The notes under the pieces: model-generated
Told to the model about the DNA's origin: nothing
Database searches by the model: none
The model's input: the letters and a program-made list of their open reading frames with translations, nothing else
Assembly: GCA_963662715.1 (NCBI GenBank)
Contig: OY759724.1
Coordinates: 659,136-723,135, forward strand
Source of the DNA: Candidatus Omnitrophota bacterium
GTDB lineage: Bacteria > Omnitrophota > Gorgyraeia > Zapsychrales > JANLHA01
Reading direction: 5' to 3'
DNA: 64,000 nucleotides
Shown: piece by piece, positions 853 through 25,493 of the stretch
Position numbering within the stretch: position 1 is the stretch's first letter
How the letters are laid out: each line of letters begins with the position of its first letter
Position numbers and translations under genes: made by a program

Positions 853-2802
853 TTAACGCCGTTCTTTAATAAGCTGTTTAAGTTCTGTCTGCCGTTTCTG
901 ATACTCTTCAATACGTTTATTCAAAATTTCTTCTTCCTGCTTATAGAAGTCCAACAAACGTTTACCGAAATCTGCCTTCTCTTTTTCAAGCTGTTCCTGG
1001 AGCTTCCGGTTTTCTCTCTCTTGTTCGTTCGTCAATGATTCCAGGGTGGACTGCTCTTTTTGCAGCGCAGAGAATTCTTCTTTAAGATTATTGCTCAACG
1101 CTTTCAATTCCGCCATCCGGTCCTCTCTCGCTTCTTTCTCTTGTTCTAAGTCATTCAATTCTTGCGTAATACGCCTGTTTTCGGCCTGCTGATGTTTATA
1201 CAACTCCTCCAAATCATCGTATTCCGCTTTGGCCTCATCAAATTCCTTGATCAATTTCTGCAGTTTCTTATTTTCTTCCTCCTGGTCTTTGGCCAGGGTT
1301 TCCAGTTCGACCTTCTCTTTCTGCAAAGAGCCGTATTCCTCTTTCAACATCTTATTAAGGTCCTTCAATTGATCTGTGCGGGACTGTTTTTCTTCTTTCT
1401 CCTTCTCCAACGACGCCAATTCCGTCCTGATACGTTTATTCTCCGCCTGCTGCTCAATAAACAATTTTTCCAGACCATCATATTCGGCTTTGGCCTGCTC
1501 AAACTCTTTTATGACCTTTTGCAGCTTTTTATTCTCTTCCTCCTGATCTTTCGCCATCGTTTCCAGTTCGACCTTTTCTTTCTTCAAGGAAACATACTCC
1601 TCTTTCATCATCTTATTCAAATCCTTAAGTTCATCCATACGCTGCTGTTTTTCGCTCTTCTCTTCCTCCAGCCCCGCCAGCTGATCCTTGATACGCTTGT
1701 TATCCTGTTGCTGTTGCTCAAACAACACTTCCAGTTCCTCGTACTTCACCTGGGCCTTTTCAAATTCTTTTATCAACTTTTTAAGTTTCTTGCTTTCCTC
1801 TTCCTGAGCCTTGGTCAAAGACTCCAGCTCGACATTCTCCTTTTGCAAAGATGAATATTCCTCTTTTAAGGCCTTATTAACTTCCGTGATCTCATCCATC
1901 CGCGACTGCTTTTCTTTCTTTTCGGTCTCCATCTTGTTCAGCTTTTCCGACAACTTATCATTATCTTTCTGCTGTTCCTGAAACAGGGCTTCCATTTCAT
2001 TATAATCCGCCTGCACCTTTTCAAATTCAGCGATCAGCCTTTCATATTTCTCCTTTTCGCTTTCCTTCTTCTTGGCTAAAGCTTCAATCTCCATATTTTC
2101 ACTCCGCAGGCCTTCATATTCTTCCTTCAACCGGGTATTAATCGTCGTTAATTCACTGACACGTTCCTGCTTTTTGCTTGTCTCCGACTCCAGATCTTCC
2201 ATCTTCGTCTGCAAGGCTTCGTTCTCAGACTGCTGTTTCTCAAAGGACGACTCCAGGTCTTTATAATCCTTTTCCGCCTGTTCATACTGCTTCACGAGTT
2301 CCAGGTTGGTCTCCTCCAGCTGAGTATTCTTCTCCTCCTGCAGCCGGATCTCCTCCTCCTGCTGGACAATCCTGTCCCGCAAAAGATTATTCTCCTCCTG
2401 CTGCCGGACAAACATATCCTGGAGCTCATCATATTCATTTTGCCGTTTTTGAAAATCAGCCAGAACCTGTTTATTCAGATGTTTCAACTCCAGAATTTTT
2501 TCCTTAAGATCATCGTTCAACTGCTCCTGGGACTTCATTTTATTTTTCAAGACTTTGTATTCTTCTTTCAAATACTGCTTGTTCTTTTTAAGTTTCATAT
2601 TCTCTATGGCCTGCTTTTCATTTTCTTCAACACGCTTTTCATTATATTCTTTATGGACGTGGCTGTAGGGGCGCAACTGCCATTCATACAAATCCTTCTC
2701 TGCTGCCTGAACCGAAGGGCTGTACGCGCACCAAGTTATCAAGAATAAAAACACCCATGAGGCCAATAACCTTCTTAATTGCCGTTCTGTTGCTTTAGTC
2801 AT
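853..2802 (-). CDS. Secreted/periplasmic giant coiled-coil tandem-repeat protein (hypothetical)
   Basis: Start placed at the internal ATG (MTKATERQLRRLLASWVFLFLITWCAYSPSVQA-AEK), which has a signal-peptide-like N-terminus and an AGGAGA RBS 7 nt upstream. The body is K/E/Q/L-rich heptad-like sequence in about six tandem units of about 87 aa (LKEEYxxLxKExVELExLxKxQEEEnKKLqKlIKEFExAkAeY...). The ORF-track start at 2877 is an upstream extension. Confidence 0.6.
   Translation of the reverse strand: MTKATERQLRRLLASWVFLFLITWCAYSPSVQAAEKDLYEWQLRPYSHVHKEYNEKRVEENEKQAIENMKLKKNKQYLKEEYKVLKNKMKSQEQLNDDLKEKILELKHLNKQVLADFQKRQNEYDELQDMFVRQQEENNLLRDRIVQQEEEIRLQEEKNTQLEETNLELVKQYEQAEKDYKDLESSFEKQQSENEALQTKMEDLESETSKKQERVSELTTINTRLKEEYEGLRSENMEIEALAKKKESEKEKYERLIAEFEKVQADYNEMEALFQEQQKDNDKLSEKLNKMETEKKEKQSRMDEITEVNKALKEEYSSLQKENVELESLTKAQEEESKKLKKLIKEFEKAQVKYEELEVLFEQQQQDNKRIKDQLAGLEEEKSEKQQRMDELKDLNKMMKEEYVSLKKEKVELETMAKDQEEENKKLQKVIKEFEQAKAEYDGLEKLFIEQQAENKRIRTELASLEKEKEEKQSRTDQLKDLNKMLKEEYGSLQKEKVELETLAKDQEEENKKLQKLIKEFDEAKAEYDDLEELYKHQQAENRRITQELNDLEQEKEAREDRMAELKALSNNLKEEFSALQKEQSTLESLTNEQERENRKLQEQLEKEKADFGKRLLDFYKQEEEILNKRIEEYQKRQTELKQLIKERR
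960..2130 (-). repeat. In-frame tandem repeat of about 261 bp (about 87-aa units) inside the coiled-coil gene
   Basis: The protein units LKEEY...KQxRMDEL...LNKM recur about six times. The periodicity is visible in the DNA as ttcttcctcctg / tttcagttcgac-type motifs repeating at the same spacing. Confidence 0.5.
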
Positions 2803-3090
2803 ACGATTCTCCTCAATTAACGTTTTAGTTAGGAAAGACATATTAATAGTATTCAATAAAACAAAATAAAATGTCAAGAGGACAGACTAGGACTATATAG
2901 GACATTTAATATACTACTAATACTATTTTACAAAAAAAAGCTCTTCAAAAAACATAACATCAATATCTACAGCATGTTACACATCTAAAAGGCCCTGTCC
3001 AGAGAAAAATTATTTCTCTTTACTTGGAAACTTTTAATAATTATCATAATAAATTAAGGATTCCGGCAATCTCCCGGGAAAAACAGGCAC

Positions 3091-3717
3091 ATGGACAAAA
3101 TAAACACGCCCAAAGTATCGAGCTATCAAACAGTCATAAACTCCATCGAGGATGATTATGATACGTATCAATGGTTCGGCTATCTGCTGTGGCAAGAACA
3201 ACCCAAAACTCTCCTCTGTGAGGCTGCCGGCATAGATCGCCTTTATTCAAACCTGGCCGACAAAGAAAGGAACGAACTTTTAGGAAGAACGGTCATCTTT
3301 ATTTTAGTGTATGTTTTTATTCGAACCCAGATGGCATACATGGCCCTGCCCGTTTTACCGCTTTGCCTCGGTTTGTTCTTCTTAAAGAAGGGGAAAAAAG
3401 AAATCATTATAAAGCTTTCTTCGTTGTTCCTGCAACAGGAATTTTCCCAAGACATCTTTGGACAAAAAACCTTATACCAACTGGCGGAAATCATAAGCAA
3501 AAAATATCACACGACATCTTTAGTTGATGTCATTTTCTTTAATGAGAATTTCTTCAGATTATTCCTCATAGGCATTTTTCTCCTTTTTGTCTCTCCTTTT
3601 ATCTTCGTCAACATTTTTGATAACCTGCTTGTCATCATTCTTTTTATGTTTTTCATCAAATCCATCGTCACCAGCCGATGGACATATCGGCACCCCAAAC
3701 TGATGCGGCTTATATGA
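3091..3717 (+). CDS. Hypothetical membrane protein
   Basis: 208-aa ORF with an ATG start and several hydrophobic segments (FILVYVFIRT, LPVLPLCLGLFF, LFLIGIFLLFVSPFIFV, LLVIILFMFFI). No recognisable motif. It is convergent with the downstream rSAM gene. Confidence 0.4.
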   Translation: MDKINTPKVSSYQTVINSIEDDYDTYQWFGYLLWQEQPKTLLCEAAGIDRLYSNLADKERNELLGRTVIFILVYVFIRTQMAYMALPVLPLCLGLFFLKKGKKEIIIKLSSLFLQQEFSQDIFGQKTLYQLAEIISKKYHTTSLVDVIFFNENFFRLFLIGIFLLFVSPFIFVNIFDNLLVIILFMFFIKSIVTSRWTYRHPKLMRLI

Positions 3718-3751
3718 AGAACCCCCTGGATATAAGGGGACGGGTGGGGAA

Positions 3752-5674
3752 TCAGGCAAGTGTCAGGATGATCTTAATAAATAAAAAAATAGACAGAGTT
3801 AAAAGCCAGCCGTTTTGGGCTGTCGTGAGGAAGAAAAAGGTTTTTATAAGGGGGTACACGTGTTTTAAAAGCCGATATTTCATCCGCCTGGGTTGAAAAA
3901 GCAGTCGGAACGTCGTATACCATTTCCAATTCGCGTTTATAATGCGGTCCTCCTTAAGCATATCCGCAAAATGCTGGGTCCCCGGCATAGGCGTCAGAAT
4001 ACTAAGGATGGTCCAGGAAGGAAAAATCGACAGGCAAAACAACCAATTCGCTATTAAGTGGGCGTATTTATCTGAGTCAAATCCGAAAATGTAATGCCCT
4101 TTAACATTGATCCCCGCCTTTTTAACGATTCGCGTATATTCCAAATATTTTTCAGCCATTCCCAGTTTACCGCCCTGATTTTTCTCAGGCGATGAATGCC
4201 TAATTTCATATCCCACTAAAATGCCGATACAGCCACTCTTTTTGGCCAAAGATAAAATCTCAGGATTAGCGGCGATATCGATACTGCAATGTCCTGTCCA
4301 GACGATTTTTAAGGGGATCAGGGCCTCAAACAATTCCTTGACATAAGCCGGATTTGTATAAATATTACTGTCAAGAAAATGAAAATACTTATATCGAGGA
4401 CGAAGTCTTTGAACCAGCTCAATGACTTCCGATACGGGTTTTTGGTAGGTTCTCCCCTCATAGATGTTGTAGACGGCACAAAAATAACAATGAAACTTAC
4501 AGCCGCGGTTCGTTTCAAGGTAATCTTTGACTTCCGGCAGGGGCGCTTGCAACAAATACCGGTGGACTTTCTGATATTGCTCTTCCGTGCCGACTCCATG
4601 GTAGATGGGCTTCAGACGGTCATTTTCATAATCATGGATAACCTCCCCCCACACGCCCTCAGCTTCCCCCAAAACAACACTGTCACAGAACTCCGAAGCC
4701 TCATGCGGCAGGCTGGCCACATGAGGCCCCCCCATCACAACCTTGGCTCCGTGGCGTTTATACTCTTTGGCAATCTTGTATGCTTCAAAACTGTTTGAAG
4801 TGTAGCATGTTATGGCCACAAGAACATCGGCTTTATAATATCTTCTGCGCCAGAAAACCCGGGAAAAGGTTCTCACTCGATATTCCGGAGGCGTCAAAGC
4901 CTTCAGCACGGTAAAAACCGGAGGATAAAATCGCAGGGCAAAGGAAGCCATGCTTTCAAAGAAAGATCCACCGCCGAAAGGGTTGATCAGAATAAGTTCT
5001 TTGGAGGAATGATAGCGGCGCCCGACGGTGGGATATCCGCTCAGGATAAATTTTGTCGATAGGACAAAAATCAGCAAAAGAACATATTGGGAAAGGAGAA
5101 CCAGGACATCAGACAGAACATACGCCTTCATCCGGACAAAAGACTGACAAGACAAAATCCCGATATAAATGACATATAAGACCACCGGGGGGACCGTCCG
5201 TTCAAGACAAAACCGCCCCGGCCGCCATTTCACGCGGGTATCTGCTTTATACTTTTTCCGGATCATATACAAACTAAGCCAAACCAGCAGCAGCCCGTCA
5301 AGTCCTCCTCCGAGCAAGTTCAGGTTCCAGTCAGGATTTACGGCATAAAACAGAAATAACAGGAAAAATTTCCCGAAATGGATAAACAGGTAAAAGAGCA
5401 GAAAATCCCGGACATTCCGCCAGAAATCCTTGACCGAGACACAATACTTCTCCCCGGAGCACAACTCTACCAGAGCGCCGTAAAGGCCGCTTCCCAGGAC
5501 AAACTTCAACGCGTGCCCGGAGATGATAATGAGGAAGGCGTGAGTCTCGACCGCATGTTGGGGAAAATAAGAACCGCGGATATAGACCTCGGCAAAAAAA
5601 AGCAACATGACGGCGGAAATATAGGAATGAAGAATTGCGGAAGCCGACTGTAGTGACGAGAGGAATTTTTTCAT
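3752..5674 (-). CDS. B12-binding (class B) radical SAM enzyme with N-terminal polytopic membrane domain
   Basis: The N-terminal roughly 250 aa is strongly hydrophobic with multiple TM segments. It is followed by a Rossmann-like B12-binding-type segment (VLVAITCYTSNSFEAYKIAKEYKRHGAKVVMGGPHVAS) and the radical-SAM motif CKFHCYFC (CX3CX2C). ATG start at 5674. Confidence 0.7.
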   Translation of the reverse strand: MKKFLSSLQSASAILHSYISAVMLLFFAEVYIRGSYFPQHAVETHAFLIIISGHALKFVLGSGLYGALVELCSGEKYCVSVKDFWRNVRDFLLFYLFIHFGKFFLLFLFYAVNPDWNLNLLGGGLDGLLLVWLSLYMIRKKYKADTRVKWRPGRFCLERTVPPVVLYVIYIGILSCQSFVRMKAYVLSDVLVLLSQYVLLLIFVLSTKFILSGYPTVGRRYHSSKELILINPFGGGSFFESMASFALRFYPPVFTVLKALTPPEYRVRTFSRVFWRRRYYKADVLVAITCYTSNSFEAYKIAKEYKRHGAKVVMGGPHVASLPHEASEFCDSVVLGEAEGVWGEVIHDYENDRLKPIYHGVGTEEQYQKVHRYLLQAPLPEVKDYLETNRGCKFHCYFCAVYNIYEGRTYQKPVSEVIELVQRLRPRYKYFHFLDSNIYTNPAYVKELFEALIPLKIVWTGHCSIDIAANPEILSLAKKSGCIGILVGYEIRHSSPEKNQGGKLGMAEKYLEYTRIVKKAGINVKGHYIFGFDSDKYAHLIANWLFCLSIFPSWTILSILTPMPGTQHFADMLKEDRIINANWKWYTTFRLLFQPRRMKYRLLKHVYPLIKTFFFLTTAQNGWLLTLSIFLFIKIILTLA

Positions 5675-5755
5675 GCGAGGTCTCGGCAGACAGGACAGCG
5701 TCCTGTCTGCATCAATCGTTTTGCATGAAGACAGGATAAAGAGGCTGCCCTTTTT

Positions 5756-6121
5756 TCAGTCTGTTAAATCTTTGATTTTGGCAATAAGATGTTCTTGATC
5801 GAAAGGCTTGGTTATATAGGCATCTGCTTTTACGGCCCGGCCGATATCTTTATCATAATCACGGTTTCTCGCGGTCAAAAGGATGACAGGAATCGAGTGA
5901 TATTTTTCATCCGACTTTAACTGCGCACAAATACTGGCCCCCTGGATGTCGGGCAGCATCATATCCAAAATAATACAATGAGGCGGCTCCTGCCGGACCA
6001 AAGCTAAAGCGTCGGTGCCGTTATACGCACAGCTGATGTTATACCCGAGCCTTTTCAGCCGGGAAGAAATCAGGTCAACAATGTCCGGCTCATCGTCAAC
6101 AATCAAAATTTTCTTGGTCAT
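5756..6121 (-). CDS. Single-domain response-regulator receiver (CheY-like)
   Basis: 121 aa. Contains ILIVDDEPDI, the acceptor Asp context IILDMMLPD, and the TARN / KADAYITKPF receiver C-terminal motifs. RBS GCAGGAGAAGG precedes the ATG. Confidence 0.75.
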   Translation of the reverse strand: MTKKILIVDDEPDIVDLISSRLKRLGYNISCAYNGTDALALVRQEPPHCIILDMMLPDIQGASICAQLKSDEKYHSIPVILLTARNRDYDKDIGRAVKADAYITKPFDQEHLIAKIKDLTD

Positions 6122-6152: not shown

Positions 6153-7061
6153 TCATTTCACGAGACCTTGCTGTTTTGTGAAATCGTATTCTATTTCCAT
6201 CCGCCCCTCACCGGCATAAATCTGTCTTTTGTAAAGAGCGCCCTTGTCATAGAAATCAATCTGCCGCAATGACCCCCGCTTATAGTACTTACTTTGTCCA
6301 TGAAGTCTGTTCTGATGATAACTCTCCTCGGCAATGATTTTTCCGTCAGGCTCATAATTCTTCTTGACCCCTTCCAGAAGGCCTCTCTCCAGATTATAGG
6401 ACTGCTTCACTCTCCCGCTCTTATAAAATTCCTGAACATTCCCCGTCATTTTACCGTCAACCCATGTCGCCACTTTGGCCACCTCACCCGTGGGATAATA
6501 CTCGCGGAATATCCCGCTTTCTTTGCCTTGCTTATATTCCTGCTCCGAATACAAACTGCCGTCACTGTTATAGGTCTTAAGGACCCCTTCCAGGTCTCCC
6601 CCTTTATAAGTCCCTTCCTCGATCAACTGTTCCTTCGGGTTATATTTCTTAAAAGTACCGTGAGGTAAACCGTCCTTATAAATGTATTCCTTGCTCAAAG
6701 TTCCCACTTCATAATATTCCTGGTTGAGCCCGTCAGGACGTCCGTTCAGATATTCTATCTTGCTCTTCAGCTTCCCGTTAGGATAATAACCGGTAACTAA
6801 CCCGCTTAACCGGCCCTGCTCATACGTGCTGACCGATTTGACTTTCCCGCTTTCATAATAAGTCTTGGCTTTGCCGTGCAACTTTCCAAATTGTTTGATC
6901 CCCTTCTGTCTCAGCCGCCCGTCACGGTCATAGGATTTATAAACGCATTTCTCAACCGTTTTCTGTTTTTCCAAGGGGATGTCTTCACAGTCTCTTGCTC
7001 CGCAGGAAATAGACATAAAAGCGAAGATACTAAAAGAAAGGATTTTAAGGCTTCTTTTCAT
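6153..7061 (-). CDS. Lipoprotein with MORN-variant (YwqK-like) repeats
   Basis: The signal peptide plus a lipobox-like Cys (FAFMSISCGA) is followed by many repeats of YxxGxLxxxxxYxxGxxxG (YYPNGKLKSKIEYLNGRPDG, YKDGLPHGTFKKY, EYYPTGEVAKVATWVDGKMTG and others). Confidence 0.6.
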   Translation of the reverse strand: MKRSLKILSFSIFAFMSISCGARDCEDIPLEKQKTVEKCVYKSYDRDGRLRQKGIKQFGKLHGKAKTYYESGKVKSVSTYEQGRLSGLVTGYYPNGKLKSKIEYLNGRPDGLNQEYYEVGTLSKEYIYKDGLPHGTFKKYNPKEQLIEEGTYKGGDLEGVLKTYNSDGSLYSEQEYKQGKESGIFREYYPTGEVAKVATWVDGKMTGNVQEFYKSGRVKQSYNLERGLLEGVKKNYEPDGKIIAEESYHQNRLHGQSKYYKRGSLRQIDFYDKGALYKRQIYAGEGRMEIEYDFTKQQGLVK

Positions 7062-7187: not shown

Positions 7188-9452
7188 TTATGGCGGTTCT
7201 GCAATCAGAGACTGAATATCATTGATATACTGTTTATGCAACAATTCCTGCGTCATAGCCTCCGCGCTTTTCAGATTTATCCGGGCCACCCCTTCCTGAA
7301 TCTTAGACAAATGATGGGGATCCAGGCTGAATTTTCGGATACCTATTCCTAAAAAAAAGGCCGTGTACCGCTCATCCTGGGCCATTTGTCCGCAAATGGA
7401 GACATCTTTATTCCTGGCCTTTGCCGCTTCCACGATTCTCTTCAGGGATCTGATGATGGCCGGGTGATGGGGCAGGTATAAATCAGCGACTTTTTCGTTT
7501 GTCCGGTCAACAGCCAACATATACTGGATAAAATCATTCGTCCCGATACTGAAAAAATCGACAAATTCGGTCAAGTCATCAATGATTTCCAGGACGGCAG
7601 GCAGCTCAATCATCATGCCGACTTCCGGGGACGGGTGATGGGGGCATCCGGCGCTTTCCAGCTCCTTTATCGTTTTCCGGACTTCCTCCTTCGCTTCAAG
7701 GAACTCTTCGACAGAAGAAATCATCGGGAACATAATCCTCAACCGGGCCTGCGTCCCGGCTCTCAAGATAGCCTTAAGCTGCTGCTGAAAGACCTCTTTA
7801 TGGCGCAGAGAAAAACGGATGGAACGCATACCCAGGAAAGGGTTTTCCTCTTTCGCATAACAATAATAAGATAAAACCTTATCCCCGCCGATGTCCAGAG
7901 TGCGAAAGGTGACCTCTTTCCCCTGCATATCATCCGCCAGCTTCTTATAAATGACGTACTGCTCTTCTTCGGTGGGCAAAGAAGACCTTATAATAAAAGG
8001 GAACTCCGTGCGGTAAAGGCCCACGCCTTCAGCCTGGTAGGCACAAGCTGTTTTCAAATCACTCAATAAATTGATATTCGCCAGCAATGTCACCCGCTCT
8101 CCGTCCGCGGTCACTGTCTGCGCGCGGGTCGGGGGGGCCGAGGCTTTAAGCCGTGATCTGTCAGCCTCTTTTTGCCGCAAGGCTTTTAAGACATCTTCCT
8201 GGGGACTAATGAATATGTGGCCCTGTTCCCCGTCGATACAGATTTTTGTGTGGGGAGGCAAATGCAGGAGATCATCCTCATCGGTTATGATAAGGGGGAT
8301 CTCCAGAGAAGCGGCCAAGATAGACAAATGCGACGTAACTCCTCCGCTTAAAAGAATCAAGCCTTTAATATTCTGGGAATATAATTTTAAGATTTCCGAA
8401 GGATACAATTCCTGGGCAATAACAATATGACTTTTGTAAAAATCGGCCCGTTCTTCCCCCTTCTCCAAGCACCCTAACAGCCTGAGGCCCACATCAAGAA
8501 CATCGTATTTCTTTTCTTTCAGATAATCGTTCGGCAAGGATTCAAACATCGTCACATATCTTTTAACCGCAACCATAATGGCTTGCCGCACAGGAACCTG
8601 CTGTTCAATCTGATGCTCGATGGAACGGATAAACTCCTCGTCTTTCAGCATTAAAAGCTGTGCGGTAAAAATAAGAGAAGCGACGTCTCCCAATTTTTCT
8701 TCGACTTGTTTTTGGGCTTTCTCTAATTGCGCTGTCGTCCGTTTTACCGCTTCATGAAAGTCGGCTATGGTCATCGTCTGACAGGAGAATGTCAAAGACA
8801 TCTGAGACAGGGAGATGTCCCGTTCATACACAGCAGCCTCAGCGAAAGCAAACCCTTCAGCCCCCACCCGCGCTTTAATAAACTTCAGCTGACTGGACTT
8901 TGCAGAGGCTGCCGGGGGCTGCCGGGGCGGCTCTTTCAACCCGGCTAAAATCTTCGTCATTTCCAGAGTATTCGCCAGCTGGGAGGCGATCACTTTACAG
9001 GCATTAATATCGGCATTTGTAAAATAATTCTTCTGCGAATTCTGAACGACAAGAACCCCGATCCGGGTCTGCCCCCTTAAAATAGGGACGCTCAGGAAGG
9101 ACTCAAAAGGCTCCTCCCCTATTTCAGGAAAATATTTAAAAGAGTGATTCCCGCTTGCGTCCCGCTCACAAATAGGCCTCATTTCCTTCAGGGACAAACC
9201 GGTCAGCCCTTCCCCCAACTTAAGACGCACGTTTTTTGCCGCCTCTTTCTTTAACCCTTTGGTCGCCGTTAAAACGAGCTCTTGCTTTTCTTCGGAATAC
9301 AGATAAATCGAACAAACATCAGTCTGCATATGGTCTGCCACCATTTCGACTGTCTTTTGGAGAAAGGCTTCCAGACTCGAGGCATCTGCAAAAAGGCCGG
9401 ATAATTCACCGACATTACATAAAAGTTGTGAATGATCCCTTTTTTTAGACAT
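7188..9452 (-). CDS. ptsP: Phosphoenolpyruvate-protein phosphotransferase PtsP (GAF domain + enzyme I, PTS-Ntr type)
   Basis: An N-terminal GAF-like region is followed by the enzyme-I PEP-utilising domain (active-site His in GGVTSHLSILAASLEIPL) and the C-terminal PEP-binding TIM barrel (GMMIELPA, GTNDFIQY). Start set at the internal ATG (MSKKRDHSQ). The track ORF extends to 9545, across the tRNA, and is over-called. Confidence 0.8.
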   Translation of the reverse strand: MSKKRDHSQLLCNVGELSGLFADASSLEAFLQKTVEMVADHMQTDVCSIYLYSEEKQELVLTATKGLKKEAAKNVRLKLGEGLTGLSLKEMRPICERDASGNHSFKYFPEIGEEPFESFLSVPILRGQTRIGVLVVQNSQKNYFTNADINACKVIASQLANTLEMTKILAGLKEPPRQPPAASAKSSQLKFIKARVGAEGFAFAEAAVYERDISLSQMSLTFSCQTMTIADFHEAVKRTTAQLEKAQKQVEEKLGDVASLIFTAQLLMLKDEEFIRSIEHQIEQQVPVRQAIMVAVKRYVTMFESLPNDYLKEKKYDVLDVGLRLLGCLEKGEERADFYKSHIVIAQELYPSEILKLYSQNIKGLILLSGGVTSHLSILAASLEIPLIITDEDDLLHLPPHTKICIDGEQGHIFISPQEDVLKALRQKEADRSRLKASAPPTRAQTVTADGERVTLLANINLLSDLKTACAYQAEGVGLYRTEFPFIIRSSLPTEEEQYVIYKKLADDMQGKEVTFRTLDIGGDKVLSYYCYAKEENPFLGMRSIRFSLRHKEVFQQQLKAILRAGTQARLRIMFPMISSVEEFLEAKEEVRKTIKELESAGCPHHPSPEVGMMIELPAVLEIIDDLTEFVDFFSIGTNDFIQYMLAVDRTNEKVADLYLPHHPAIIRSLKRIVEAAKARNKDVSICGQMAQDERYTAFFLGIGIRKFSLDPHHLSKIQEGVARINLKSAEAMTQELLHKQYINDIQSLIAEPP

Positions 9453-9483
9453 GATGAGGTCAAGATGAGAATACAAAACAGGA

Positions 9484-9560
9484 TGGTCGGGGAGGAGGGA
9501 TTCGAACCCTCGACCCCATGCTCCCAAAGCATGTGCGCTAGCCAACTGCGCTACTCCCCG
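9484..9560 (-). tRNA. tRNA-Pro (anticodon UGG)
   Basis: The reverse complement reads CGGGGAGTAGCGCAGTTGGCTAGCGCACATGCTTTGGGAGCATGGGGTCGAGGGTTCGAATCCCTCCTCCCCGACCA (77 nt). The acceptor stem is CGGGGAG/CTCCCCG. The anticodon stem CATGC/GCATG closes the loop TTTGGGA, giving anticodon TGG with G37. The T-loop is GGTTCGAATCC. CCA is encoded. Confidence 0.85.
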
Positions 9561-17314: not shown

Positions 17315-17401
17315 CTTTCTTCTACCTTATATGGCTTGTTTATTTTCACGGCAGGCATTGTGCTGCCCCCTTGGGGCGCGGAATCCCCAGAAGCCCCCTT
17401 A

Positions 17402-18526
17402 TCAAAACCGCCGGTGATCTACGTACTCCTTTATGCCTTTAGATATTCCATCGGCAAGACTTTGTCGGTACTGGGGGGAATTAAGCGATCGTTCCTCCCG
17501 GGAATTAGAAAGGAATCCCACTTCAATTAAAACAGCCGGCATCAAAGTATTCCGTAACACGAAAAACCCTGCCCTGAATACCCCACGGTTTTTCGCGCGT
17601 GTTTCTCTTTCAAGCCTTTCAGAAAGCAGAACAGCTAATGAATTTGACGCCGAAGCTTTATGCTGAAAAAGCATGTCCGAAACAATAGCTTCTACCGCGT
17701 CATCTTTTCTTTGCAGAGATAATTGCTTGAAAAAGATATCATGATTTCTTTCCCTTTGGGGATCCTTTTTCTCTTTCCACTCAAGATCCCTGAGGAAGTA
17801 CACTTCCAGTCCGGAAGGCCTGCGGGACGTGCTGGAATTCGCATGGATACTAATAAACAAATCCGCCCCGTACTGACTGGCCAGCTCCGTACGCTTCTCC
17901 AAAGAAATAAATTGATCGTTCGTACGGGTCATTTTCACATCATAATGATACTCTTTCAAATTATTCCTTACTCTTTTCGCGATATCAAGGACAACGTCTT
18001 TTTCATACGTTCCCGTCACTCCGATAGCCCCGGGGTCTTTTCCCCCATGCCCCGCGTCTATAACGATGCGATAAGACCTGAAGAAATCATCGGCCGTACG
18101 GTCCAACAATTCCAAAACAACTTTTCTGCGGAAGTCGGGAGGGACGATAATTCTTCCCCTCAGACGCTTAAGCGGCCTGCTCAAATAGACTTTCTTCTGA
18201 TTGACAACCACAACCTCGCTGCCGACCAGTCCTTTTGCCGATAAGGAGCCTTTACTTAACGTGACAGCTTGCGATACGCTGTCCCAGTACCAGTTGATGT
18301 CATATTGTTCACATAACTCCTTTAAAGACGTTGTTTCCCTTGGTGTCTGGACAGACACACATCCCGGCAGCAGGAAAAGAAGACACAGAACAAAAGCACA
18401 TTTATGTCTTATAGCAAAAATGGGAAAGCCTCCTTTTATTGAAGACGTCCGGATATAATTGAATATCATTATACGTTTGCCGGTCAAGACAAACAAGAAA
18501 AATAAGCAAAAACCCCAATATTTCAT
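17402..18526 (-). CDS. N-acetylmuramoyl-L-alanine amidase (Amidase_3 family, AmiC-like), lipoprotein-type N-terminus
   Basis: IVIDAGHGGKDPGAIG, ADLFISIHANS and LIEVGFLSN are Amidase_3 signatures. The N-terminus is hydrophobic with LLPGC (lipobox-like). The exact start is uncertain between two ATGs. Confidence 0.7.
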   Translation of the reverse strand: MKYWGFCLFFLFVLTGKRIMIFNYIRTSSIKGGFPIFAIRHKCAFVLCLLFLLPGCVSVQTPRETTSLKELCEQYDINWYWDSVSQAVTLSKGSLSAKGLVGSEVVVVNQKKVYLSRPLKRLRGRIIVPPDFRRKVVLELLDRTADDFFRSYRIVIDAGHGGKDPGAIGVTGTYEKDVVLDIAKRVRNNLKEYHYDVKMTRTNDQFISLEKRTELASQYGADLFISIHANSSTSRRPSGLEVYFLRDLEWKEKKDPQRERNHDIFFKQLSLQRKDDAVEAIVSDMLFQHKASASNSLAVLLSERLERETRAKNRGVFRAGFFVLRNTLMPAVLIEVGFLSNSREERSLNSPQYRQSLADGISKGIKEYVDHRRF

Positions 18527-18669
18527 GACGACGTCATGTCCTTTTGCTGCATCTTAACGAAAACACAGGCTGTCATCCCGCGCCCACAGGTGCGGGCAGA
18601 CACGACCGGGAATTATTTTCCTCCTGTAAATGATCTTTGTACGCGGGCGGGGTCAAAAAAATCATTTGG

Positions 18670-20451
18670 TTAAAAGGACCCCCCGGACATGATATCCGAG
18701 GACACATCCCCTGTTATAAGTTTCGGGGTCAAAAATATAACAATTTCCGTCTTTCTCGATAACAGATCTCTATTCCGGAACGCCATACCGACAAGAGGCA
18801 CATCCCCCAGAACAGGGACTTTATTTTCAGAGTTAATTTTCTCATCTTTAATAAGCCCGCCGATGACGATGGTAACGCCGTTCTTAACCATCACCACGGT
18901 TTCTGCTTCAGAGGTTTCCACAACAGGAATCGTGTTATTATTACTGGTCGTCAAAGTCCGGGTCACCGAACTCACCTCCGGACGGATCTTCATGGTAATA
19001 AATTCGTCCCTGTGAATCGTGGGCGTGACGTAAAGCTTAATCCCGACATCAATAAAACTGATGCTTTCGGCTGTCGTCGTAGGGCCACTGGCCGGGGTCG
19101 TTGTCGTCGTTGTCACATACGGTTCCTGGGACCCGACAAGAATCCTCGCCTCCTGATTATTTACGGCCGTGATTCTCGGAGAAGACAAAATATTTGTTTC
19201 TCCCGTGCTCTCCAACGCTTCCAGGAGAGCAGTATAGTCGTCCGTGTCCAAGGTCCCGATTGTGATCGTCCCGCCCTTATCGGAACTGTTGAGAATACTG
19301 AAGTCCCCCTTGATATTCATGTCATGGTAATCCCGGACAATCGCCTCCCAGTCGACCCCGAATTTCTGTTCCTCGCTCAAGACGACCTGCAGAATTTTCG
19401 CTTCAATGAGAACCTGTGATTCCTGGACATCGAAGGATTCCACGATTCTATCCACCTCTTCAATGGCGACGGCGGTATCCCGGACAATGACCTTATTGGA
19501 CCTCGTATCAAATTTGATCTGCCCGACATTTTTCGTTAACACCTCACTGATTTTCTGGGACAGGTCCTCCGCCTTGGCATAGCTTAACTCATAGACTTTT
19601 GTTTCCACCGGCGTATCTATTTTATTGACCAAAGCTTCCATATCAGCGATGACATCAGGAGAGTCCGAGATGACAATAATATTGGACTTGGCGTCGAAAA
19701 TGATTTTCCCCAGGTAGCTCTTCATCTGAGTCAAAAGGGTGACAACATCCTGAGCGTCGGCATAAATGATCTGCAGAATTTTTGATTCAAGGGCCCCGCC
19801 GAATTTATAACCATAGCGTTTTTCAAATTCGGGGGCCGTCATAACATGGATGATGCCCTCATTCTCTTTATAAGCTAATCCATTCGAATCCAGGATGATC
19901 CGTAAAGCATCTTCCCAGTAAACATCCTTCAGGTAAATTGTCACCGTCCCGTTCACACCTTTTCCTGCGATAATATTCTCCCCGCTTTTCTGAGCAATCA
20001 ATTTTAAAACGTCCGTAATATCAACGTTTTTCATCTGCAACACATCGATCAACCCGGAACGAGATACGTCTGTGCCTGAAGATGTCCGGCCGGGAGGGGA
20101 CTCCCCGTTATTCCGGGGGACGAGAGCGGTAGGAAGTTCCTCGTCCAAAGACTCCGCCAAAAAATCCGTCACAACAATGTTCTGCGGGTCCTTATATAAT
20201 TCCTGTCTGACAATGGAACTGATCATCGTTACCGTATTGTCCGTATCCCGGACAACCTGAGAGGTGTTAGAAACGGACCGCTCTTCCCGCAGGTCATTCC
20301 GCTGTCCGTCATAACTGTCAAGAGCCTGGCGAATCATCTCTTCCCGGTCCTGCGTCAATCCTTTGGAAACCGGGGAACAAAGGGCCATGACGACGGCAAA
20401 AACAACCCCCCGGAACATATTTCGTCTCATCAGCTGTATTCTTTCATTCAT
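18670..20451 (-). CDS. gspD: Type II secretion system secretin GspD
   Basis: A signal peptide (from ATG MNERIQLMRRNMFRGVVFAVVMALCSP, RBS GGGAGG) is followed by N0/N1-like domains (TIYLKDVYWEDALRIILDSNGLAY) and the C-terminal secretin domain (NILSSPRITAVNNQEARILVG ... VVMVKNGVTIVIGGLIKD ... VPVLGDVPLVGMAFRNRD ... IVIFLTPKLI). Confidence 0.75.
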   Translation of the reverse strand: MNERIQLMRRNMFRGVVFAVVMALCSPVSKGLTQDREEMIRQALDSYDGQRNDLREERSVSNTSQVVRDTDNTVTMISSIVRQELYKDPQNIVVTDFLAESLDEELPTALVPRNNGESPPGRTSSGTDVSRSGLIDVLQMKNVDITDVLKLIAQKSGENIIAGKGVNGTVTIYLKDVYWEDALRIILDSNGLAYKENEGIIHVMTAPEFEKRYGYKFGGALESKILQIIYADAQDVVTLLTQMKSYLGKIIFDAKSNIIVISDSPDVIADMEALVNKIDTPVETKVYELSYAKAEDLSQKISEVLTKNVGQIKFDTRSNKVIVRDTAVAIEEVDRIVESFDVQESQVLIEAKILQVVLSEEQKFGVDWEAIVRDYHDMNIKGDFSILNSSDKGGTITIGTLDTDDYTALLEALESTGETNILSSPRITAVNNQEARILVGSQEPYVTTTTTTPASGPTTTAESISFIDVGIKLYVTPTIHRDEFITMKIRPEVSSVTRTLTTSNNNTIPVVETSEAETVVMVKNGVTIVIGGLIKDEKINSENKVPVLGDVPLVGMAFRNRDLLSRKTEIVIFLTPKLITGDVSSDIMSGGSF

Positions 20452-20476
20452 AACGGCATACGCCTCCCTCAATATT

Positions 20477-20983
20477 CTATTTGTCCTCCAGCAATAATTC
20501 AACAGGGGAATCATGAATCATAATAACCACCTTATTTTCCTGAATGTCCTGTAATGTGCCTTTCCCAATGCTGTCTCCCCGGGAAAAAAAAGATGTTTGC
20601 TTATCCGCTGTATCTTCTATAATCGCCAAAGGGTGCTGGTCCATAACAATGCCTAAAAGCCGGAAATGAGACACATCCGCCTGCTGTTCCGTAAGAATTA
20701 CTGCGGCCTTTCTTTGCGGAACGGCTTTTGCGGGTTCTTTCCTGTAAGGGATAATAAAAACATCTCTTTCCCCAAAAATCCTGGAATATTCGTCAAAAGA
20801 AACAGATATTTCGGGCTGCAGAAACGCCTCGGAACGGATATTTTTTCCCGGCATCTGAGCTAAGGAAAGCCCTAACGGGACCGCCGGGGAAAAATACAGC
20901 CTCGTGACGATAAATATCGTCAAAAGAACAGAAAAAAACAATAAAATGTTCGTGATCTTCTTGTACGAATACCGGACGTCCAT
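20477..20983 (-). CDS. GspC / PilP-like inner-membrane secretin-interacting protein (putative)
   Basis: From the internal ATG (MDVRYSYKKITNILLFFSVLLTIFIV) there is one TM anchor, then a segment resembling the GspC HR / PilP domain (FRLLGIVMDQHPLAIIEDTADKQTSFFSRGDSIGKGTLQDIQENKVVIMIHDSPVELLL). It sits immediately upstream of gspD. Confidence 0.4.
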   Translation of the reverse strand: MDVRYSYKKITNILLFFSVLLTIFIVTRLYFSPAVPLGLSLAQMPGKNIRSEAFLQPEISVSFDEYSRIFGERDVFIIPYRKEPAKAVPQRKAAVILTEQQADVSHFRLLGIVMDQHPLAIIEDTADKQTSFFSRGDSIGKGTLQDIQENKVVIMIHDSPVELLLEDK

Positions 20984-21166
20984 ATCTCTCCGCGCCTCAT
21001 TTCTTCTGACGGATTTCTCCACCCCCCGGCATCCGGGCCGGGCAGAGAGCCTGTCGGAAATGCTCAAGCAGTACTCTGGCATAAGAGCCCTGTCATGTCA
21101 AATCAAAAATATAAGCCCCATAATTTATTCTCACCGACCTCTGCCTCTTGAATCCCGGGCGTGCCT

Positions 21167-21697
21167 TTAAGGGATCAAAACCTTGGTGAGGCGAAAACGG
21201 CAGCGGAGCTCATTCGTCCGCTGGGATTTTCTGCTGATATCCGCCTCATCAACAAAATAGTCATACGGCGATTTCTGCAATATGAAAATAAATTCCATGA
21301 CTTTAATAAAATCCCCTTCCAAGACCAAACTGACAGAAAATTCCTTATAATGGTTCAATCCTTTAGGCTTGTTCGGTTTCAGGTCGGCAATATTCAGATT
21401 ATTACTGGCAGCCGTTGATTCAATCTCGGTCAGGACACTCGACATCACTTCTCCGTCCGACTGTTTTTGCCGGTAACTGTCCAGCCATTGACGGTATTTC
21501 TGCTGAACAGCCTTACTTTTATGAATCGTACGGGAGGCGCTGAGCCATTCCTTTTGCGAATTCTGAATTTGCTTATCCAGCCATTCCGATCTTTCTTTTA
21601 TGGGCGTATAAACAAAATTATTCAAGACATATACGCCGATAACCCCAAGACAGACAATAAAGACATTTCTTTCCCTGCGGCTAAAATGAGTTGTCAT
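21167..21697 (-). CDS. gspM: GspM / PilO-like T2SS inner-membrane protein (putative)
   Basis: About 176 aa from the ATG (MTTHFSRRERNVFIVCLGVIGVYVL). It has a single N-terminal TM followed by a coiled-coil/periplasmic domain. Its ATG overlaps the gspL stop as TAATG, indicating translational coupling. The call rests on position between gspL and gspC/D. Confidence 0.45.
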   Translation of the reverse strand: MTTHFSRRERNVFIVCLGVIGVYVLNNFVYTPIKERSEWLDKQIQNSQKEWLSASRTIHKSKAVQQKYRQWLDSYRQKQSDGEVMSSVLTEIESTAASNNLNIADLKPNKPKGLNHYKEFSVSLVLEGDFIKVMEFIFILQKSPYDYFVDEADISRKSQRTNELRCRFRLTKVLIP

Positions 21698-23139
21698 TAC
21701 GGCGCCACGCTTTCCTTGTGAGATAATTGACATACAATCTTAAACTCGACATATTCCTCTTTAAACCTTTTCCTTTCCGTGGCATATTCTAAAGCGACCT
21801 TTTGAAATATTGCGGAATCCACCAGATTATTATGAAACTGGTTCACGGAACTTCTCGACTCTCCAAAACCGAGCAGAATAATCGTCCCCTGATGATCCAG
21901 CTGCAGCGATCGGAGAGAAATGGGTTCGGGGACCTGAAGAAAAAGTCTTTTAATAATTTCAACGAGGATCGTGCGGTCCTGAATTTTATCTTTCAAGAAC
22001 TCGATTGATTGAATCGTCTCTTCCGCCTTCCTCACGTCAGGCTGTATGGCCTTGATTTCTGCTTTCATTGCAGCTAATTGTCGGCCTTTCTGATAATTAT
22101 CAAGATTGAAAGCCACCCACAACAAAATGCACGCGCTTGTCAGGACAGCCCAGAACTTAAACAATTCTTTCCTTTTCACCTTTGAAGACTTGCTCTGGAT
22201 AATCTCCGCGGGAATAAGATTCATGCCCTCGAAGACCGGCAGGCCGAGACACCCGAGGCTTGCTGTAAAGGATAAATCTTCCTGATCCGTAAATTGCGGC
22301 TGACGGTCTTTCTTCTGCCGCATAGATATCCCGCGGGGAGAAATCACTTCCACCCCGGGGATTCCTGATGTTTCCAGCTGCCGTTGCAAAGAAACGACGG
22401 GCCGGTCAGAAAGGATATAAAAACGGGATAAAGCACTCCCCATGCGTTCTCTCGCGTACGTTTCGACAGTCATCTGAATCTGTTGCAGATAATCCCCCCC
22501 GCCGCCTTTCAGGATATCCTGATGACCGAAAGGCAGGTAACGGGAAAAAAGCAACCGGTCCCCTTGCACGATACAAAGTTCCGAACAGGAACGGTCAATA
22601 TCAAGGATAATGACGGCATCATTTTTGTGTTGAACTCGCGCAAGGATATTGGCTCTGTACCAGGAAAGGATTCCTATGGATGTCAGGACGACATTTTGAC
22701 AGGAGAGGTGCGCAGACGAGAGCACGTTCAAATATCTTTCTACGATCTCCTTCTGGACAATCTGCACAAGGATTTTAGAGTAGCCTTGCGCATCCTGGCC
22801 GACAATGGCATGACAATAGACGATATCCTCCCGGGCAAAAGGGATCTGCTGATGTATTTGCAAATCGAGCATACGCTGAATCTCCGCTGGAGAATCTGAC
22901 GGCAGCGACATCAACTTTACCGTCACAAAACGCCGGGGGATCACGAGGATAAGCCGCCCGCCCTTGCTGTGCGTCCCGGCGCCTTCCTTAACAATGGCCG
23001 GCAGTTCTTCCGGCGTTGTTTCTGTTATATCCTTTACAAAAGACCGGAAAACTACCGGGAGACCGCGCTGTATTCTTGCCTGCAGGATCTTGACCTGACC
23101 GTCGGTAATTTCAAACGTGCTTCTGTATTTGTCTTTCAT
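21697..23139 (-). CDS. gspL: GspL-like protein (PilM-type actin-like cytoplasmic domain fused to PilN-like TM/periplasmic domain)
   Basis: The N-terminal half has a PilM/FtsA-like fold (ILDIDRSCSELCIVQGDRLLFSRYLPFGHQDI). Then comes a TM segment (FWAVLTSACILLWVAF) and a PilN-like periplasmic part. The track start at 23172 is a TTG, so the start was set at the next ATG. Confidence 0.55.
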   Translation of the reverse strand: MKDKYRSTFEITDGQVKILQARIQRGLPVVFRSFVKDITETTPEELPAIVKEGAGTHSKGGRLILVIPRRFVTVKLMSLPSDSPAEIQRMLDLQIHQQIPFAREDIVYCHAIVGQDAQGYSKILVQIVQKEIVERYLNVLSSAHLSCQNVVLTSIGILSWYRANILARVQHKNDAVIILDIDRSCSELCIVQGDRLLFSRYLPFGHQDILKGGGGDYLQQIQMTVETYARERMGSALSRFYILSDRPVVSLQRQLETSGIPGVEVISPRGISMRQKKDRQPQFTDQEDLSFTASLGCLGLPVFEGMNLIPAEIIQSKSSKVKRKELFKFWAVLTSACILLWVAFNLDNYQKGRQLAAMKAEIKAIQPDVRKAEETIQSIEFLKDKIQDRTILVEIIKRLFLQVPEPISLRSLQLDHQGTIILLGFGESRSSVNQFHNNLVDSAIFQKVALEYATERKRFKEEYVEFKIVCQLSHKESVAP

Positions 23140-23156
23140 GATGTCTCTTTCAGTCC

Positions 23157-24251: not shown

Positions 24252-24268
24252 TGCGTTCTCCGGTGACA

Positions 24269-25072: not shown

Positions 25073-25493
25073 TAAAAACGAACCCCTGCATAGAGAAAGA
25101 ACGCTTTCTCCCGCCCAACATCCACGAGACTTCAAAAAGAAACTCATTCAGCCGTTCGCCGACGCTTTCATTGGCACTCTGAGCAGATTGCAGGGCATAA
25201 TGAAATTCCTCAAAAGGGTCCGGAAAGTCCCCCTCTTCCTGTTTATCCTGCTCGATACTCCCCCGGGCGAAAATACGCGACATATAATTATCCGAAATGT
25301 AAATGGCTTTCGAATAGTCACGGCTGTAAACCGTGGCCCTGTAACTCTGCGCCAAAGAATGGATAAGAAACGTCAGGCTCAGGGAAAAAACCGCGATGGC
25401 CAAAAGGACTTCCAGAAGCACAATCCCGGCGACAGAGGAAAAGACCTGAAAAGCTTTCCGTTGTTTTTTCCGAACAAAAAATTTCTTTAACAT
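25062..25493 (-). CDS. gspI: Minor pseudopilin GspI
   Basis: 143 aa. The N-terminus has GIVLLEVLLAIAVFSLSLTFL, a type-IV-pilin-like hydrophobic helix with Glu at +5. Confidence 0.5.
   Translation of the reverse strand: MLKKFFVRKKQRKAFQVFSSVAGIVLLEVLLAIAVFSLSLTFLIHSLAQSYRATVYSRDYSKAIYISDNYMSRIFARGSIEQDKQEEGDFPDPFEEFHYALQSAQSANESVGERLNEFLFEVSWMLGGRKRSFSMQGFVFNAT

What the first reader, a model, noticed from the sequence alone, without database searches (positions are those of the whole stretch)
3752..6121. Membrane-embedded class-B (B12) radical-SAM enzyme next to a stand-alone receiver domain
A roughly 250-aa polytopic domain is fused N-terminally to a B12-binding and CX3CX2C radical-SAM core. 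This fusion suggests modification of a lipid or other membrane-resident substrate, for example methylation. It lies next to a CheY-like single-domain regulator and an uncharacterised membrane protein (3091..3717). I cannot place it in a characterised family.
Basis: partly seen in the sequence, partly recalled or inferred. Interest (0 to 1): 0.55.

Follow-up and report, generated by a model that had tools for sequence, protein, structure and literature searches.

The report
Membrane radical-SAM enzyme with obligate partner
This is a real, uncharacterised membrane-embedded radical-SAM enzyme whose true conserved companion is the small membrane protein encoded tail-to-tail next to it, not the response regulator; the pair is specific to Omnitrophota and its substrate is unknown.

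Summary
ORF 3752..5674 (-) encodes 640 aa: six N-terminal transmembrane helices, a B12-binding-type Rossmann domain, a CKFHCYFC radical-SAM core and a C-terminal transmembrane helix. More than 100 homologues, almost all from Candidatus Omnitrophota, share this architecture, so the start is not mis-called. No curated family claims it.

The new point is the partner. The 208-aa four-helix membrane protein at 3091..3717 (+) lies convergently downstream of the long-form enzyme in 42 of 56 genes in genome loci. Searching from the partner side, all 23 informative metagenome contigs carry the enzyme. Membrane-domain-less relatives never have the partner (0 of 25). One metagenomic protein (845 aa) is a natural partner-enzyme fusion. 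The partner has no known family or fold, and D22 and W28 are invariant in 149 diverse members.

The CheY-like receiver is canonical but sits next to the enzyme only in the closest relatives.

Most likely the two proteins form a membrane complex with a cytoplasmic active site that performs radical chemistry, possibly B12-dependent methylation, on a membrane-resident substrate. Lipid versus protein substrate, including the partner itself, and cobalamin binding are unresolved. I rate it a new variant of a known enzyme class.

The parts
3752..5674 (-). Gene for the 640-aa membrane-embedded B12-binding-type radical SAM enzyme, stop codon included
   Evidence: ORF; Pfam PF02310 and PF04055; 423 homologues, with the roughly 110 closest of the 120 listed being mostly full-length proteins of about 640 aa; AlphaFold2 pLDDT 82.4
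5009..5674 (-). N-terminal six-helix transmembrane domain (aa 1-222), N-in/C-in. The conserved residues G63, E70, S73, K141 and Y142 all lie on cytoplasmic loops
   Evidence: Hydropathy; model helices; positive-inside counts over 42 family members; conservation; no Pfam hit at E<=1 in 10 members apart from two sub-threshold chance hits (E 0.56, 0.93) in one
4625..4999 (-). Rossmann-type B12-binding-like domain (aa 226-350)
3875..4522 (-). Radical SAM partial TIM-barrel core (aa 385-600)
4478..4501 (-). CKFHCYFC = CX3CX2C [4Fe-4S] cluster motif (aa 392-399); the three Cys are invariant in the family
   Evidence: Position; invariant C392, C396, C399
3755..3820 (-). C-terminal transmembrane helix (aa 619-640). 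It is retained in 16 of the 17 short relatives sampled, which lack the N-terminal domain
   Evidence: Hydropathy; model helix 620-639
3091..3717 (+). Partner gene: 208-aa four-helix membrane protein, convergent with the enzyme gene. It has a cytoplasmic N-terminal helical region with invariant D22 and W28 and a cytoplasmic TLYQxxE...SLVD region
   Evidence: Conserved convergent neighbour; natural fusion P0166; conservation in 153 representatives; topology; no Pfam, NCBIfam or PDB fold match
3722..3739 (.). GC-rich hairpin in the 34-nt spacer between the two convergent stop codons; possible shared terminator
   Evidence: Terminator-like scan; sequence
5756..6121 (-). Stand-alone CheY-like receiver, 81 nt upstream of the enzyme gene on the same strand. 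This is a lineage-specific neighbour, not part of the conserved module
   Evidence: PF00072 at 95.3 bits; adjacent only in the window and L001-L004

Best explanation
The window carries one copy of a two-gene module specific to Omnitrophota. One gene encodes a polytopic membrane radical SAM enzyme with six N-terminal helices, a cytoplasmic B12-type Rossmann domain and rSAM barrel, and a C-terminal helix. The other, convergently transcribed, encodes a four-helix membrane protein.

Shown: the architecture; the N-in/C-in topology of both proteins, which puts the catalytic domain and all conserved loops on the cytoplasmic face; strict two-way gene linkage; co-divergence of the partner with the enzyme's membrane domain; and one natural head-to-tail fusion.

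Inferred: the two proteins assemble into one membrane complex of about 11 helices. The [4Fe-4S] cluster cleaves SAM to the 5'-deoxyadenosyl radical, which abstracts hydrogen from an unactivated carbon of a substrate that reaches the active site from the membrane.

Guess: if cobalamin is bound, as in the structural neighbours MgmA, CysS, TsrM and TokK, the outcome is C-methylation. A lipid, polyprenyl or quinone tail is the leading candidate substrate. The several paralogous modules per genome would then differ in substrate or position. The neighbouring response regulator is not an intrinsic part of the module.
For: Domains and motif.

Model and fold neighbours of class-B type.

Topology by K+R counts over 42 members: the enzyme's cytoplasmic loops score 2.1-5.3 against 0.5-0.6 for the outer loops. 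The partner scores 8.0, 7.4 and 2.7 against 0.1-0.2.

Linkage from the enzyme side: of the long-form genes, 42 have the convergent partner directly downstream, 7 are followed by another tandem enzyme gene, 5 have no partner and 2 lie at a contig edge. None of 25 short-form genes has it. The stop-to-stop distance is typically -4 to +3 nt.

The partner HMM hits none of the short-type loci.

Linkage from the partner side: all four informative places from two partner-first look-ups have the enzyme (the third look-up is cut by the contig end). So do 23 of 23 informative contigs among 27 partner genes found by a motif scan of metagenomes.

The fusion protein P0166 (845 aa) sits on an 11.2-kb contig that has no separate partner.

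Co-divergence: r(partner, N-domain) = 0.80, partial r = 0.54 after removing the catalytic domain.

Sixteen of the 17 short relatives sampled keep the C-terminal anchor, so membrane attachment looks ancestral to the clade.

No conserved small ORF that could be a peptide precursor lies nearby.
Against: No experiment or complex prediction was possible, so assembly is inferred from linkage, one fusion and correlated divergence. Shared phylogeny inflates the last of these.

Convergent rather than operonic arrangement is unusual for obligate subunits.

The membrane-embedded parts of both proteins are poorly conserved (21-23% mean identity) and only cytoplasmic residues are conserved. That fits an anchor or scaffold as well as a lipid-binding site.

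Beyond the partner, the neighbouring genes show no recurrent lipid, isoprenoid or quinone theme.

The top structural neighbour, AprD4, has the same two-domain fold but, from my own knowledge, does not use cobalamin, so methylation is not implied.

Tandem arrays of 2-4 enzyme genes share one partner. That fits a shared substrate as well as a shared subunit.
Confidence: 0.45

Rival explanations
1. The partner is the substrate. The enzyme post-translationally modifies the partner's cytoplasmic region, for example by C-methylation at or near the invariant W28 or D22, producing a modified membrane protein of unknown role.
For: D22 and W28 are invariant in 149 of 149 aligned representatives of a family that otherwise averages about 23% identity. 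Strict one-to-one linkage fits an enzyme-substrate pair, and so do several tandem enzymes per partner. The closest structural neighbours include enzymes acting on protein or amino-acid carbons: MgmA on an MCR glutamine and TsrM on tryptophan.
Against: The conserved partner regions are predicted as packed helices with pLDDT 83-89 rather than a flexible peptide, although that model is only moderate overall at 70.7. A head-to-tail fusion of enzyme and substrate would be unusual. The partner co-diverges with the membrane domain more than with the catalytic domain.
Confidence: 0.2
2. The enzyme is cobalamin-independent. The Rossmann domain is only B12-like, as in AprD4, and the enzyme performs non-methylating radical chemistry such as dehydration, C-C coupling, cyclisation or desaturation on its membrane substrate. 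This rival concerns the chemistry, not the substrate.
Against: The Pfam B12-binding model scores above its curated cutoff. Most other close structural neighbours bind cobalamin: MgmA, CysS, TsrM, TokK and OxsB.
Confidence: 0.3
3. The module belongs to pilus or envelope-protein biogenesis. The enzyme modifies a membrane-inserted pilin or secretion-system component rather than a lipid.
For: Short paralogues of the same clade sit inside Tad/Flp pilus loci with RcpC/CpaB, a secretin, a CpaE-CpaF-like ATPase and DUF192 (L056, L057, L059, L063, L073). The same ATPase family lies near long-form pairs in L008, L012 and L019.
Against: Only 3 of about 50 long-form loci show this. In the window the type II/IV secretion genes are more than 11 kb away. 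No pilin-like small ORF is conserved next to the pairs.
Confidence: 0.08
4. The enzyme is the output of a two-component pathway, with the adjacent stand-alone receiver docking on it and controlling it. This is the association the first reader emphasised.
For: The receiver is canonical, lies 81 nt upstream on the same strand and has no terminator-like site in between. The order MORN-like protein, receiver, enzyme is kept in L001-L004.
Against: The receiver is absent from that position in all more distant loci. Receiver genes make up 29 of 1046 ORFs in the loci, so occasional proximity is expected by chance.
Confidence: 0.07

Closest known systems
Class B (cobalamin-dependent) radical SAM enzymes with solved structures: MgmA (9ccb), CysS (9n1b), TsrM (6wte), TokK (7kdx), OxsB (5ul2)
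   Different: As far as I know, all of these are soluble proteins. None has a polytopic membrane domain, a C-terminal membrane helix or a dedicated membrane partner. Sequence identity is only 11-17%. Cobalamin binding by this protein is untested.
AprD4 (6fd2), radical SAM 1,2-diol dehydratase
   Different: It is a soluble aminoglycoside-pathway enzyme with 14% identity. From my own knowledge, its B12-like domain binds no cobalamin.
Lipid-modifying radical SAM enzymes: hopanoid HpnJ, HpnP and HpnR; GDGT ring synthases GrsA/B; GMGT methylase; the ladderane-type TIGR04072 family; Tes and Mss
   Same: These perform radical chemistry on membrane lipids, and several are B12-rSAM enzymes. There are weak NCBIfam hits to HpnJ, HpnR and TIGR04072. 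Omnitrophota are reported to encode Mss and Hbs homologues (10.1101/2023.10.20.563219).
   Different: All scores are far below the family cutoffs: 60.7 against 577.6, 27.9 against 650, and 39.6 against 360. The Tes authors found at most one predicted helix and could not decide whether it is membrane-bound (PMC8941075). The 2026 review of lipid rSAM enzymes never uses the word 'transmembrane' and describes no polytopic member in the passages I retrieved (PMC13459092).
Methylthiotransferases MiaB and RimO, including eukaryotic CDKAL1
   Different: TIGR00089 scores 24.3 against a cutoff of 251. The first cysteine of the N-terminal auxiliary-cluster triad is absent, since beta-1 reads LINPFGGG. 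No TRAM domain was detected.

Membership tests
Radical SAM superfamily | CX3CX2C motif for the [4Fe-4S] cluster | tested here: met
   CKFHCYFC at residues 392-399; all three Cys are invariant in 26 aligned homologues.
Radical SAM superfamily | PF04055 above its gathering score, and a partial TIM-barrel fold | tested here: met
Class B (B12-binding) radical SAM | N-terminal Rossmann-type B12-binding domain preceding the rSAM core | tested here: met
   PF02310 scores 38.3 bits against 32.1. The model shows the beta-alpha pattern at 226-350. It superposes on TsrM, CysS, TokK and MgmA.
Class B (B12-binding) radical SAM | Actual cobalamin binding and use | not testable with these tools
   No diagnostic sequence motif exists. 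The best structural neighbour, AprD4, has the same fold and, from my own knowledge, no cobalamin.
HpnJ (TIGR03471), BchE (TIGR02026), HpnR (TIGR04367), ladderane-type TIGR04072, PhpK family (TIGR04479) | Score at or above the curated NCBIfam cutoff | tested here: not met
   Scores against cutoffs are 60.7/577.6, 54.7/481.35, 27.9/650, 39.6/360 and 42.4/600. All matches cover the generic core only.
MiaB/RimO methylthiotransferases | Three-Cys auxiliary cluster in the N-terminal domain, and a family HMM score above cutoff | tested here: not met
   TIGR00089 scores 24.3 against 251. There is no Cys in beta-1.
RiPP-modifying rSAM systems | Adjacent short precursor-peptide gene | tested here: not met
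   No ORF of 25-99 aa is conserved within 2 kb of the pairs across the partner-bearing loci.
CheY-like stand-alone receiver (neighbour 5756..6121) | Full-length PF00072 match with the phospho-acceptor Asp and no output domain | tested here: met
   95.3 bits over residues 5-117 of 121. DD at 9-10, D53 and K105 are visible in the translation.
Known anti-phage defence systems (PADLOC) | Significant hit of the enzyme or partner to a defence-system model | tested here: not met
   The only hit is a 29.5-bit partial match of the enzyme to candidate PDC-M51A. The partner has none.

The most novel reading that the evidence does not exclude
The pair is the first example of an integral-membrane radical SAM holoenzyme, made of a polytopic enzyme and a dedicated membrane subunit of unknown fold. 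It would tailor the hydrocarbon chains of Omnitrophota membrane lipids in situ, for example by mid-chain methylation or cross-linking of membrane-spanning lipids. The 2-4 paralogous modules per genome would each set a different position. This would give a genetic handle on bacterial branched or membrane-spanning lipid modifications, whose enzymes are, to my knowledge, largely unassigned.
Probability: 0.2. Interest if true: 0.8.

Novelty: new variant of a known kind. Interest (0 to 1): 0.58.

Why it matters
As far as I know, radical SAM enzymes that act on lipids or membrane proteins are soluble or peripheral. How they reach substrates buried in the bilayer is an open mechanistic question. The Tes authors could not settle membrane association (PMC8941075).

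A phylum-wide, multi-copy family in which the catalytic domain is built onto a six-helix membrane domain and tied to a dedicated membrane partner would be a natural system for studying that problem. It also marks a core but unknown envelope function in Omnitrophota, an uncultivated phylum of ultra-small, probably host-dependent bacteria (PMC10066038).

There is a practical point as well. At least one gene call missed the partner gene and the partner has no family model, so annotation pipelines currently see only a generic 'radical SAM protein'.

Tried and rejected
**Paralogues in the window.** A tblastn of the enzyme against the window found only itself. The paralogues P0007 and P0046 lie elsewhere on the same 3.36-Mb contig. 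Context look-ups for P0001, P0007 and P0046 found nothing on record.

**Partner homologues.**
- A single-sequence search found only the query itself.
- A profile search was limited by the word filter to 7 proteins.
- The exhaustive HMMER search was needed to see the family.

**Known family or fold for the partner and the N-domain.**
- Pfam at E<=1 on 35 partners and 10 N-domains gave nothing consistent.
- NCBIfam gave nothing.
- Foldseek of the partner model against the PDB had a best E of 1.5.
- The afdb50 library was unavailable.
- hhalign of partner against N-domain gave probability 1.6%, so they are not duplicates of each other.

**Other hypotheses tested.**
- RiPP-type precursor: no conserved small ORF.
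- Quinone or prenyl link: UbiA and a UbiE-like methyltransferase lie upstream of the fusion gene in L079, but UbiA recurs in no other locus and the UbiE-like gene in only one, L049.
- Defence system: PADLOC was negative.
- Cobalamin riboswitch or other RNA element: Rfam found only tRNA-Pro.

- The search for related loci with partner alignments failed because no stretch was conserved enough. It was replaced by a degenerate DNA motif scan.

**Literature.** I found no description of a polytopic radical SAM enzyme or of this family.
Full report
**1. What is there**

The minus-strand ORF 3752..5674 encodes 640 aa.
- Pfam places a B12-binding domain at residues 280-341 and a Radical_SAM domain at 388-535, both above their gathering scores.
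- The cluster motif CKFHCYFC starts at residue 392.
- Kyte-Doolittle analysis gives six hydrophobic helices within residues 14-208 and a seventh at 619-640.
- An AlphaFold2 model built on 26 homologues has mean pLDDT 82.4 and pTM 0.79. It shows long helices through residue 221, a Rossmann beta-alpha domain at 226-350, a partial barrel, and two C-terminal helices.
- No NCBIfam model comes near its cutoff. The best is HpnJ at 60.7 bits against 577.6.
- A profile search of PDB sequences finds only AprD4 and MgmA, weakly.

One correction is that the membrane domain is about 222 aa. One addition is the C-terminal membrane helix.

**2. The start is not mis-called, and the family is Omnitrophota-specific**

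A search of 5.8 billion proteins gave 423 hits. Of the 120 listed, the closest roughly 110 are mostly full-length proteins of about 640 aa, with a few shorter partial entries, and the source names that exist are almost all Candidatus Omnitrophota.

In an alignment of 26 of them the N-terminal domain has the same length and helix pattern. It is poorly conserved except for a motif, SGxYGxLxExxSGxE, at residues 61-75 and KY at 141-142.

The same 3.36-Mb contig carries two further paralogues, P0007 at 50% identity and P0046 at 40%. They are not in this window.

A scan of one genome per GTDB species found at least 498 related stretches. The 76 loci kept are nearly all Omnitrophota MAGs or auto-named PVC bins, often with 2-4 copies per genome.

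**3. The real companion is the small membrane protein, not the receiver**

I called ORFs in all loci and clustered them. Only one neighbour recurs: a protein of about 200 aa homologous to window ORF 3091..3717, always on the opposite strand directly downstream of the enzyme gene.

Enzyme-first counts for the long-form genes, 590 aa or more:
- 42 have this convergent partner directly downstream.
- 7 are followed by another tandem enzyme gene (in the arrays seen, the last copy carries the partner).
- 5 have none.
- 2 are at contig edges.

None of the 25 complete short-form relatives, which are about 440 aa and lack the N-terminal domain, has the partner. A partner HMM hits none of the short-type loci.

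The distance between the two stop codons clusters around -4 to +3 nt, so the 3' ends usually touch or overlap. In the window the spacer is 34 nt and holds a GC-rich hairpin at 3722-3739.

Partner-first tests remove the ascertainment bias:
- Two look-ups that started from partner proteins gave four places, each with the enzyme convergent and 0-5 nt away. A third partner's contig ended too soon to tell.
- A degenerate DNA motif for T-L-[YF]-Q-x2-E-x8-P-[ST]-L-V-D found 29 metagenome stretches, 27 of which encode a partner.
- All 23 of those with enough downstream sequence carry the enzyme convergently. Some have arrays of 2-4 enzyme genes per partner.

One gene caller missed the partner altogether (L080).

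By contrast, the receiver lies immediately upstream of the enzyme only in the window and its four closest relatives (L001-L004). These share the block PtsP or other gene, MORN-like protein, receiver, enzyme, partner, coiled-coil protein.

**4. What the partner is**

It has no Pfam, NCBIfam or PADLOC hit. Its model, at pLDDT 70.7, has no PDB fold match.

An exhaustive HMMER search of 1.84 billion cluster representatives finds only 222 members at E<=0.001. Of the 150 listed, all are between 135 and 231 aa (mostly about 200 aa) except one.

The exception, P0166, is 845 aa. It consists of a complete partner followed by a roughly 10-residue linker and a complete enzyme. It sits on an 11.2-kb contig with no separate partner downstream.

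Such a fusion requires the partner's C-terminus and the enzyme's N-terminus to be on the same side of the membrane. K+R counts over 42 pairs agree with that:
- In the enzyme, the N-terminus, loops 2 and 4, and the post-helix-6 segment are basic (2.1-5.3). Loops 1, 3 and 5 are not (0.5-0.6).
- In the partner, the N-terminal 64 residues, the central 54 residues and the C-terminus are basic (8.0, 7.4, 2.7). The two hairpin loops are not (0.1-0.2).

Both proteins are therefore N-in/C-in. The catalytic domain and every conserved residue of both proteins face the cytoplasm.

Across 153 representatives, D22 and W28 of the partner are invariant in all 149 sequences that align at those positions. The TLYQxxE...SLVD region is 80-94% conserved.

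Partner divergence tracks the enzyme's membrane domain (r = 0.80) more than its catalytic domain (r = 0.74). The partial r is 0.54 after removing the catalytic signal. Mean identities are 23% for the partner, 21% for the membrane domain and 49% for the catalytic domain.

The partner is not homologous to the N-domain; hhalign gives probability 1.6%.

**5. How it most likely works**

Shown: the architecture, the topology, obligate two-way linkage, one fusion, and co-divergence.

Inferred: the two proteins form one membrane complex of about 11 helices. Their conserved cytoplasmic loops surround the mouth of the rSAM barrel. SAM cleavage yields a 5'-deoxyadenosyl radical that attacks a substrate delivered from the membrane.

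Sixteen of the 17 short relatives sampled keep a C-terminal anchor, which suggests that membrane attachment is ancestral to the clade.

The chemistry is not resolved. It could be methylation through cobalamin or something else. The best neighbour, AprD4, does not use cobalamin (my own knowledge), while most of the other neighbours do.

The substrate is not resolved either.
- Neighbouring genes beyond the partner vary widely and show no lipid, isoprenoid or quinone theme.
- The UbiA/UbiE pair next to the fusion gene essentially does not recur: UbiA in no other locus, the UbiE-like gene in one.
- No small precursor ORF is conserved.
- The two invariant partner residues and the arrays of several enzymes per partner keep open the possibility that the partner itself is modified. 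Its predicted packed helices and the fusion favour a subunit or adaptor role.

**6. Comparison with known systems**

The catalytic half is a member of the radical SAM superfamily and has the class-B two-domain layout. Cobalamin use cannot be tested here. It fails the membership thresholds of every curated class-B family and of the methylthiotransferases.

As far as I know and as far as the held literature shows, the known lipid-modifying rSAM enzymes are not polytopic. The Tes authors could not decide on membrane association. The 2026 review of lipid rSAM enzymes never uses the word 'transmembrane' and describes no polytopic member in the passages I retrieved. Phrase searches for membrane-embedded radical SAM enzymes returned nothing. 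The main Omnitrophota genomics paper does not mention the family. Omnitrophota are reported to carry Mss and Hbs homologues, which makes a lipid role conceivable but is not evidence for it.

**7. Verdict**

This is a real feature. It is a new architectural variant of a known enzyme class with a previously undescribed obligate partner family. Function is unknown at the level of substrate and chemistry. Interest is moderate to fairly high for radical SAM enzymology and for Omnitrophota biology.

Noticed in passing
L056 9902-18579; L059 9947-20109; L063 70-1479; L073 9962-11368; L057 2689-4005: Short relatives of the enzyme, about 440-470 aa with no N-terminal membrane domain but a C-terminal helix, sit inside Tad/Flp-type pilus loci. 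Their neighbours are a SurA-like PPIase, RcpC/CpaB, a secretin with a TonB_C tail, a fused CpaE-CpaF-like ATPase and DUF192. Often one copy lies at each end of the locus.
   Followed up: partly
L058 2767-3273; L067 2261-2755; L068 11337-11831; L079 806-1306: A different small membrane protein family of about 165 aa lies co-directionally just downstream of another subgroup of short enzymes. It also occurs about 5 kb upstream of the fusion gene in L079. Small membrane companions may therefore be a wider theme in this clade.
   Followed up: no
L099 1363-7165; L100 2-5195; L112 1789-5617; L116 4-5109; L015: Tandem arrays of two to four full-length membrane enzyme genes are followed by a single partner gene. 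In L045 and L116 a further enzyme gene lies divergently on the partner's other side.
   Followed up: partly
window 7188-9560: The longest ORF for the GAF-Enzyme I (PtsP-type) gene starts with TTG at 9545, inside tRNA-Pro (9484-9560, same strand). Its first 30 or so residues (…GAWGRGFESLLPDH…) are translated tRNA sequence, so the true start is probably the internal Met of MSKKRDH, near 9449.
   Followed up: partly
window 853-2877 (-): This 674-aa protein has an N-terminal hydrophobic segment and a long, highly charged Glu/Lys-rich region with visibly repeated units of about 70 aa (…KEEY.SLQKE.VELE.L.K.QEEE.KKL…). It has no Pfam family and only weak SMC-like coiled-coil hits. It is syntenic with the pair in L001-L004 only.
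   Followed up: no
window 6153-7061 (-): A 302-aa MORN-repeat-variant protein lies directly upstream of the receiver. It has a lipoprotein-like N-terminus (…MSISCGA…) and a weak LIC20035-adhesin hit. It is conserved with the receiver in the closest relatives.
   Followed up: no
window 17400-33200 (-): This is a cluster of type II secretion / type IV pilus genes: two secretins (18670-20514 and 31632-33203), a PilM/PilN fusion (21697-23172), a T2SSE ATPase with an MshEN domain (27913-29622) and a TPR protein (29667-31586).
   Followed up: no
L083/L084 3205-9455; L086 3208-9551; L087 1-5837: In one subgroup the pair is flanked by a Wzy_C (O-antigen ligase/polymerase-like) protein on the partner side. 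Upstream of the enzyme, on its strand, are a Methyltransf_30 gene whose end overlaps the enzyme's start in L083 (a 5-148 nt gap in L084, L086 and L087) and a Band_7/SPFH protein. This is a possible envelope-related operon.
   Followed up: no
L080 9920-10549 (-): The partner gene is present and overlaps the enzyme's 3' end by 4 nt, but the public gene call for that contig missed it. The family is therefore probably under-counted in protein databases.
   Followed up: yes
window 59894-63871 (-) and 38674-40410 (+): These large ORFs of 1325 aa and 578 aa have no meaningful Pfam match.
   Followed up: no
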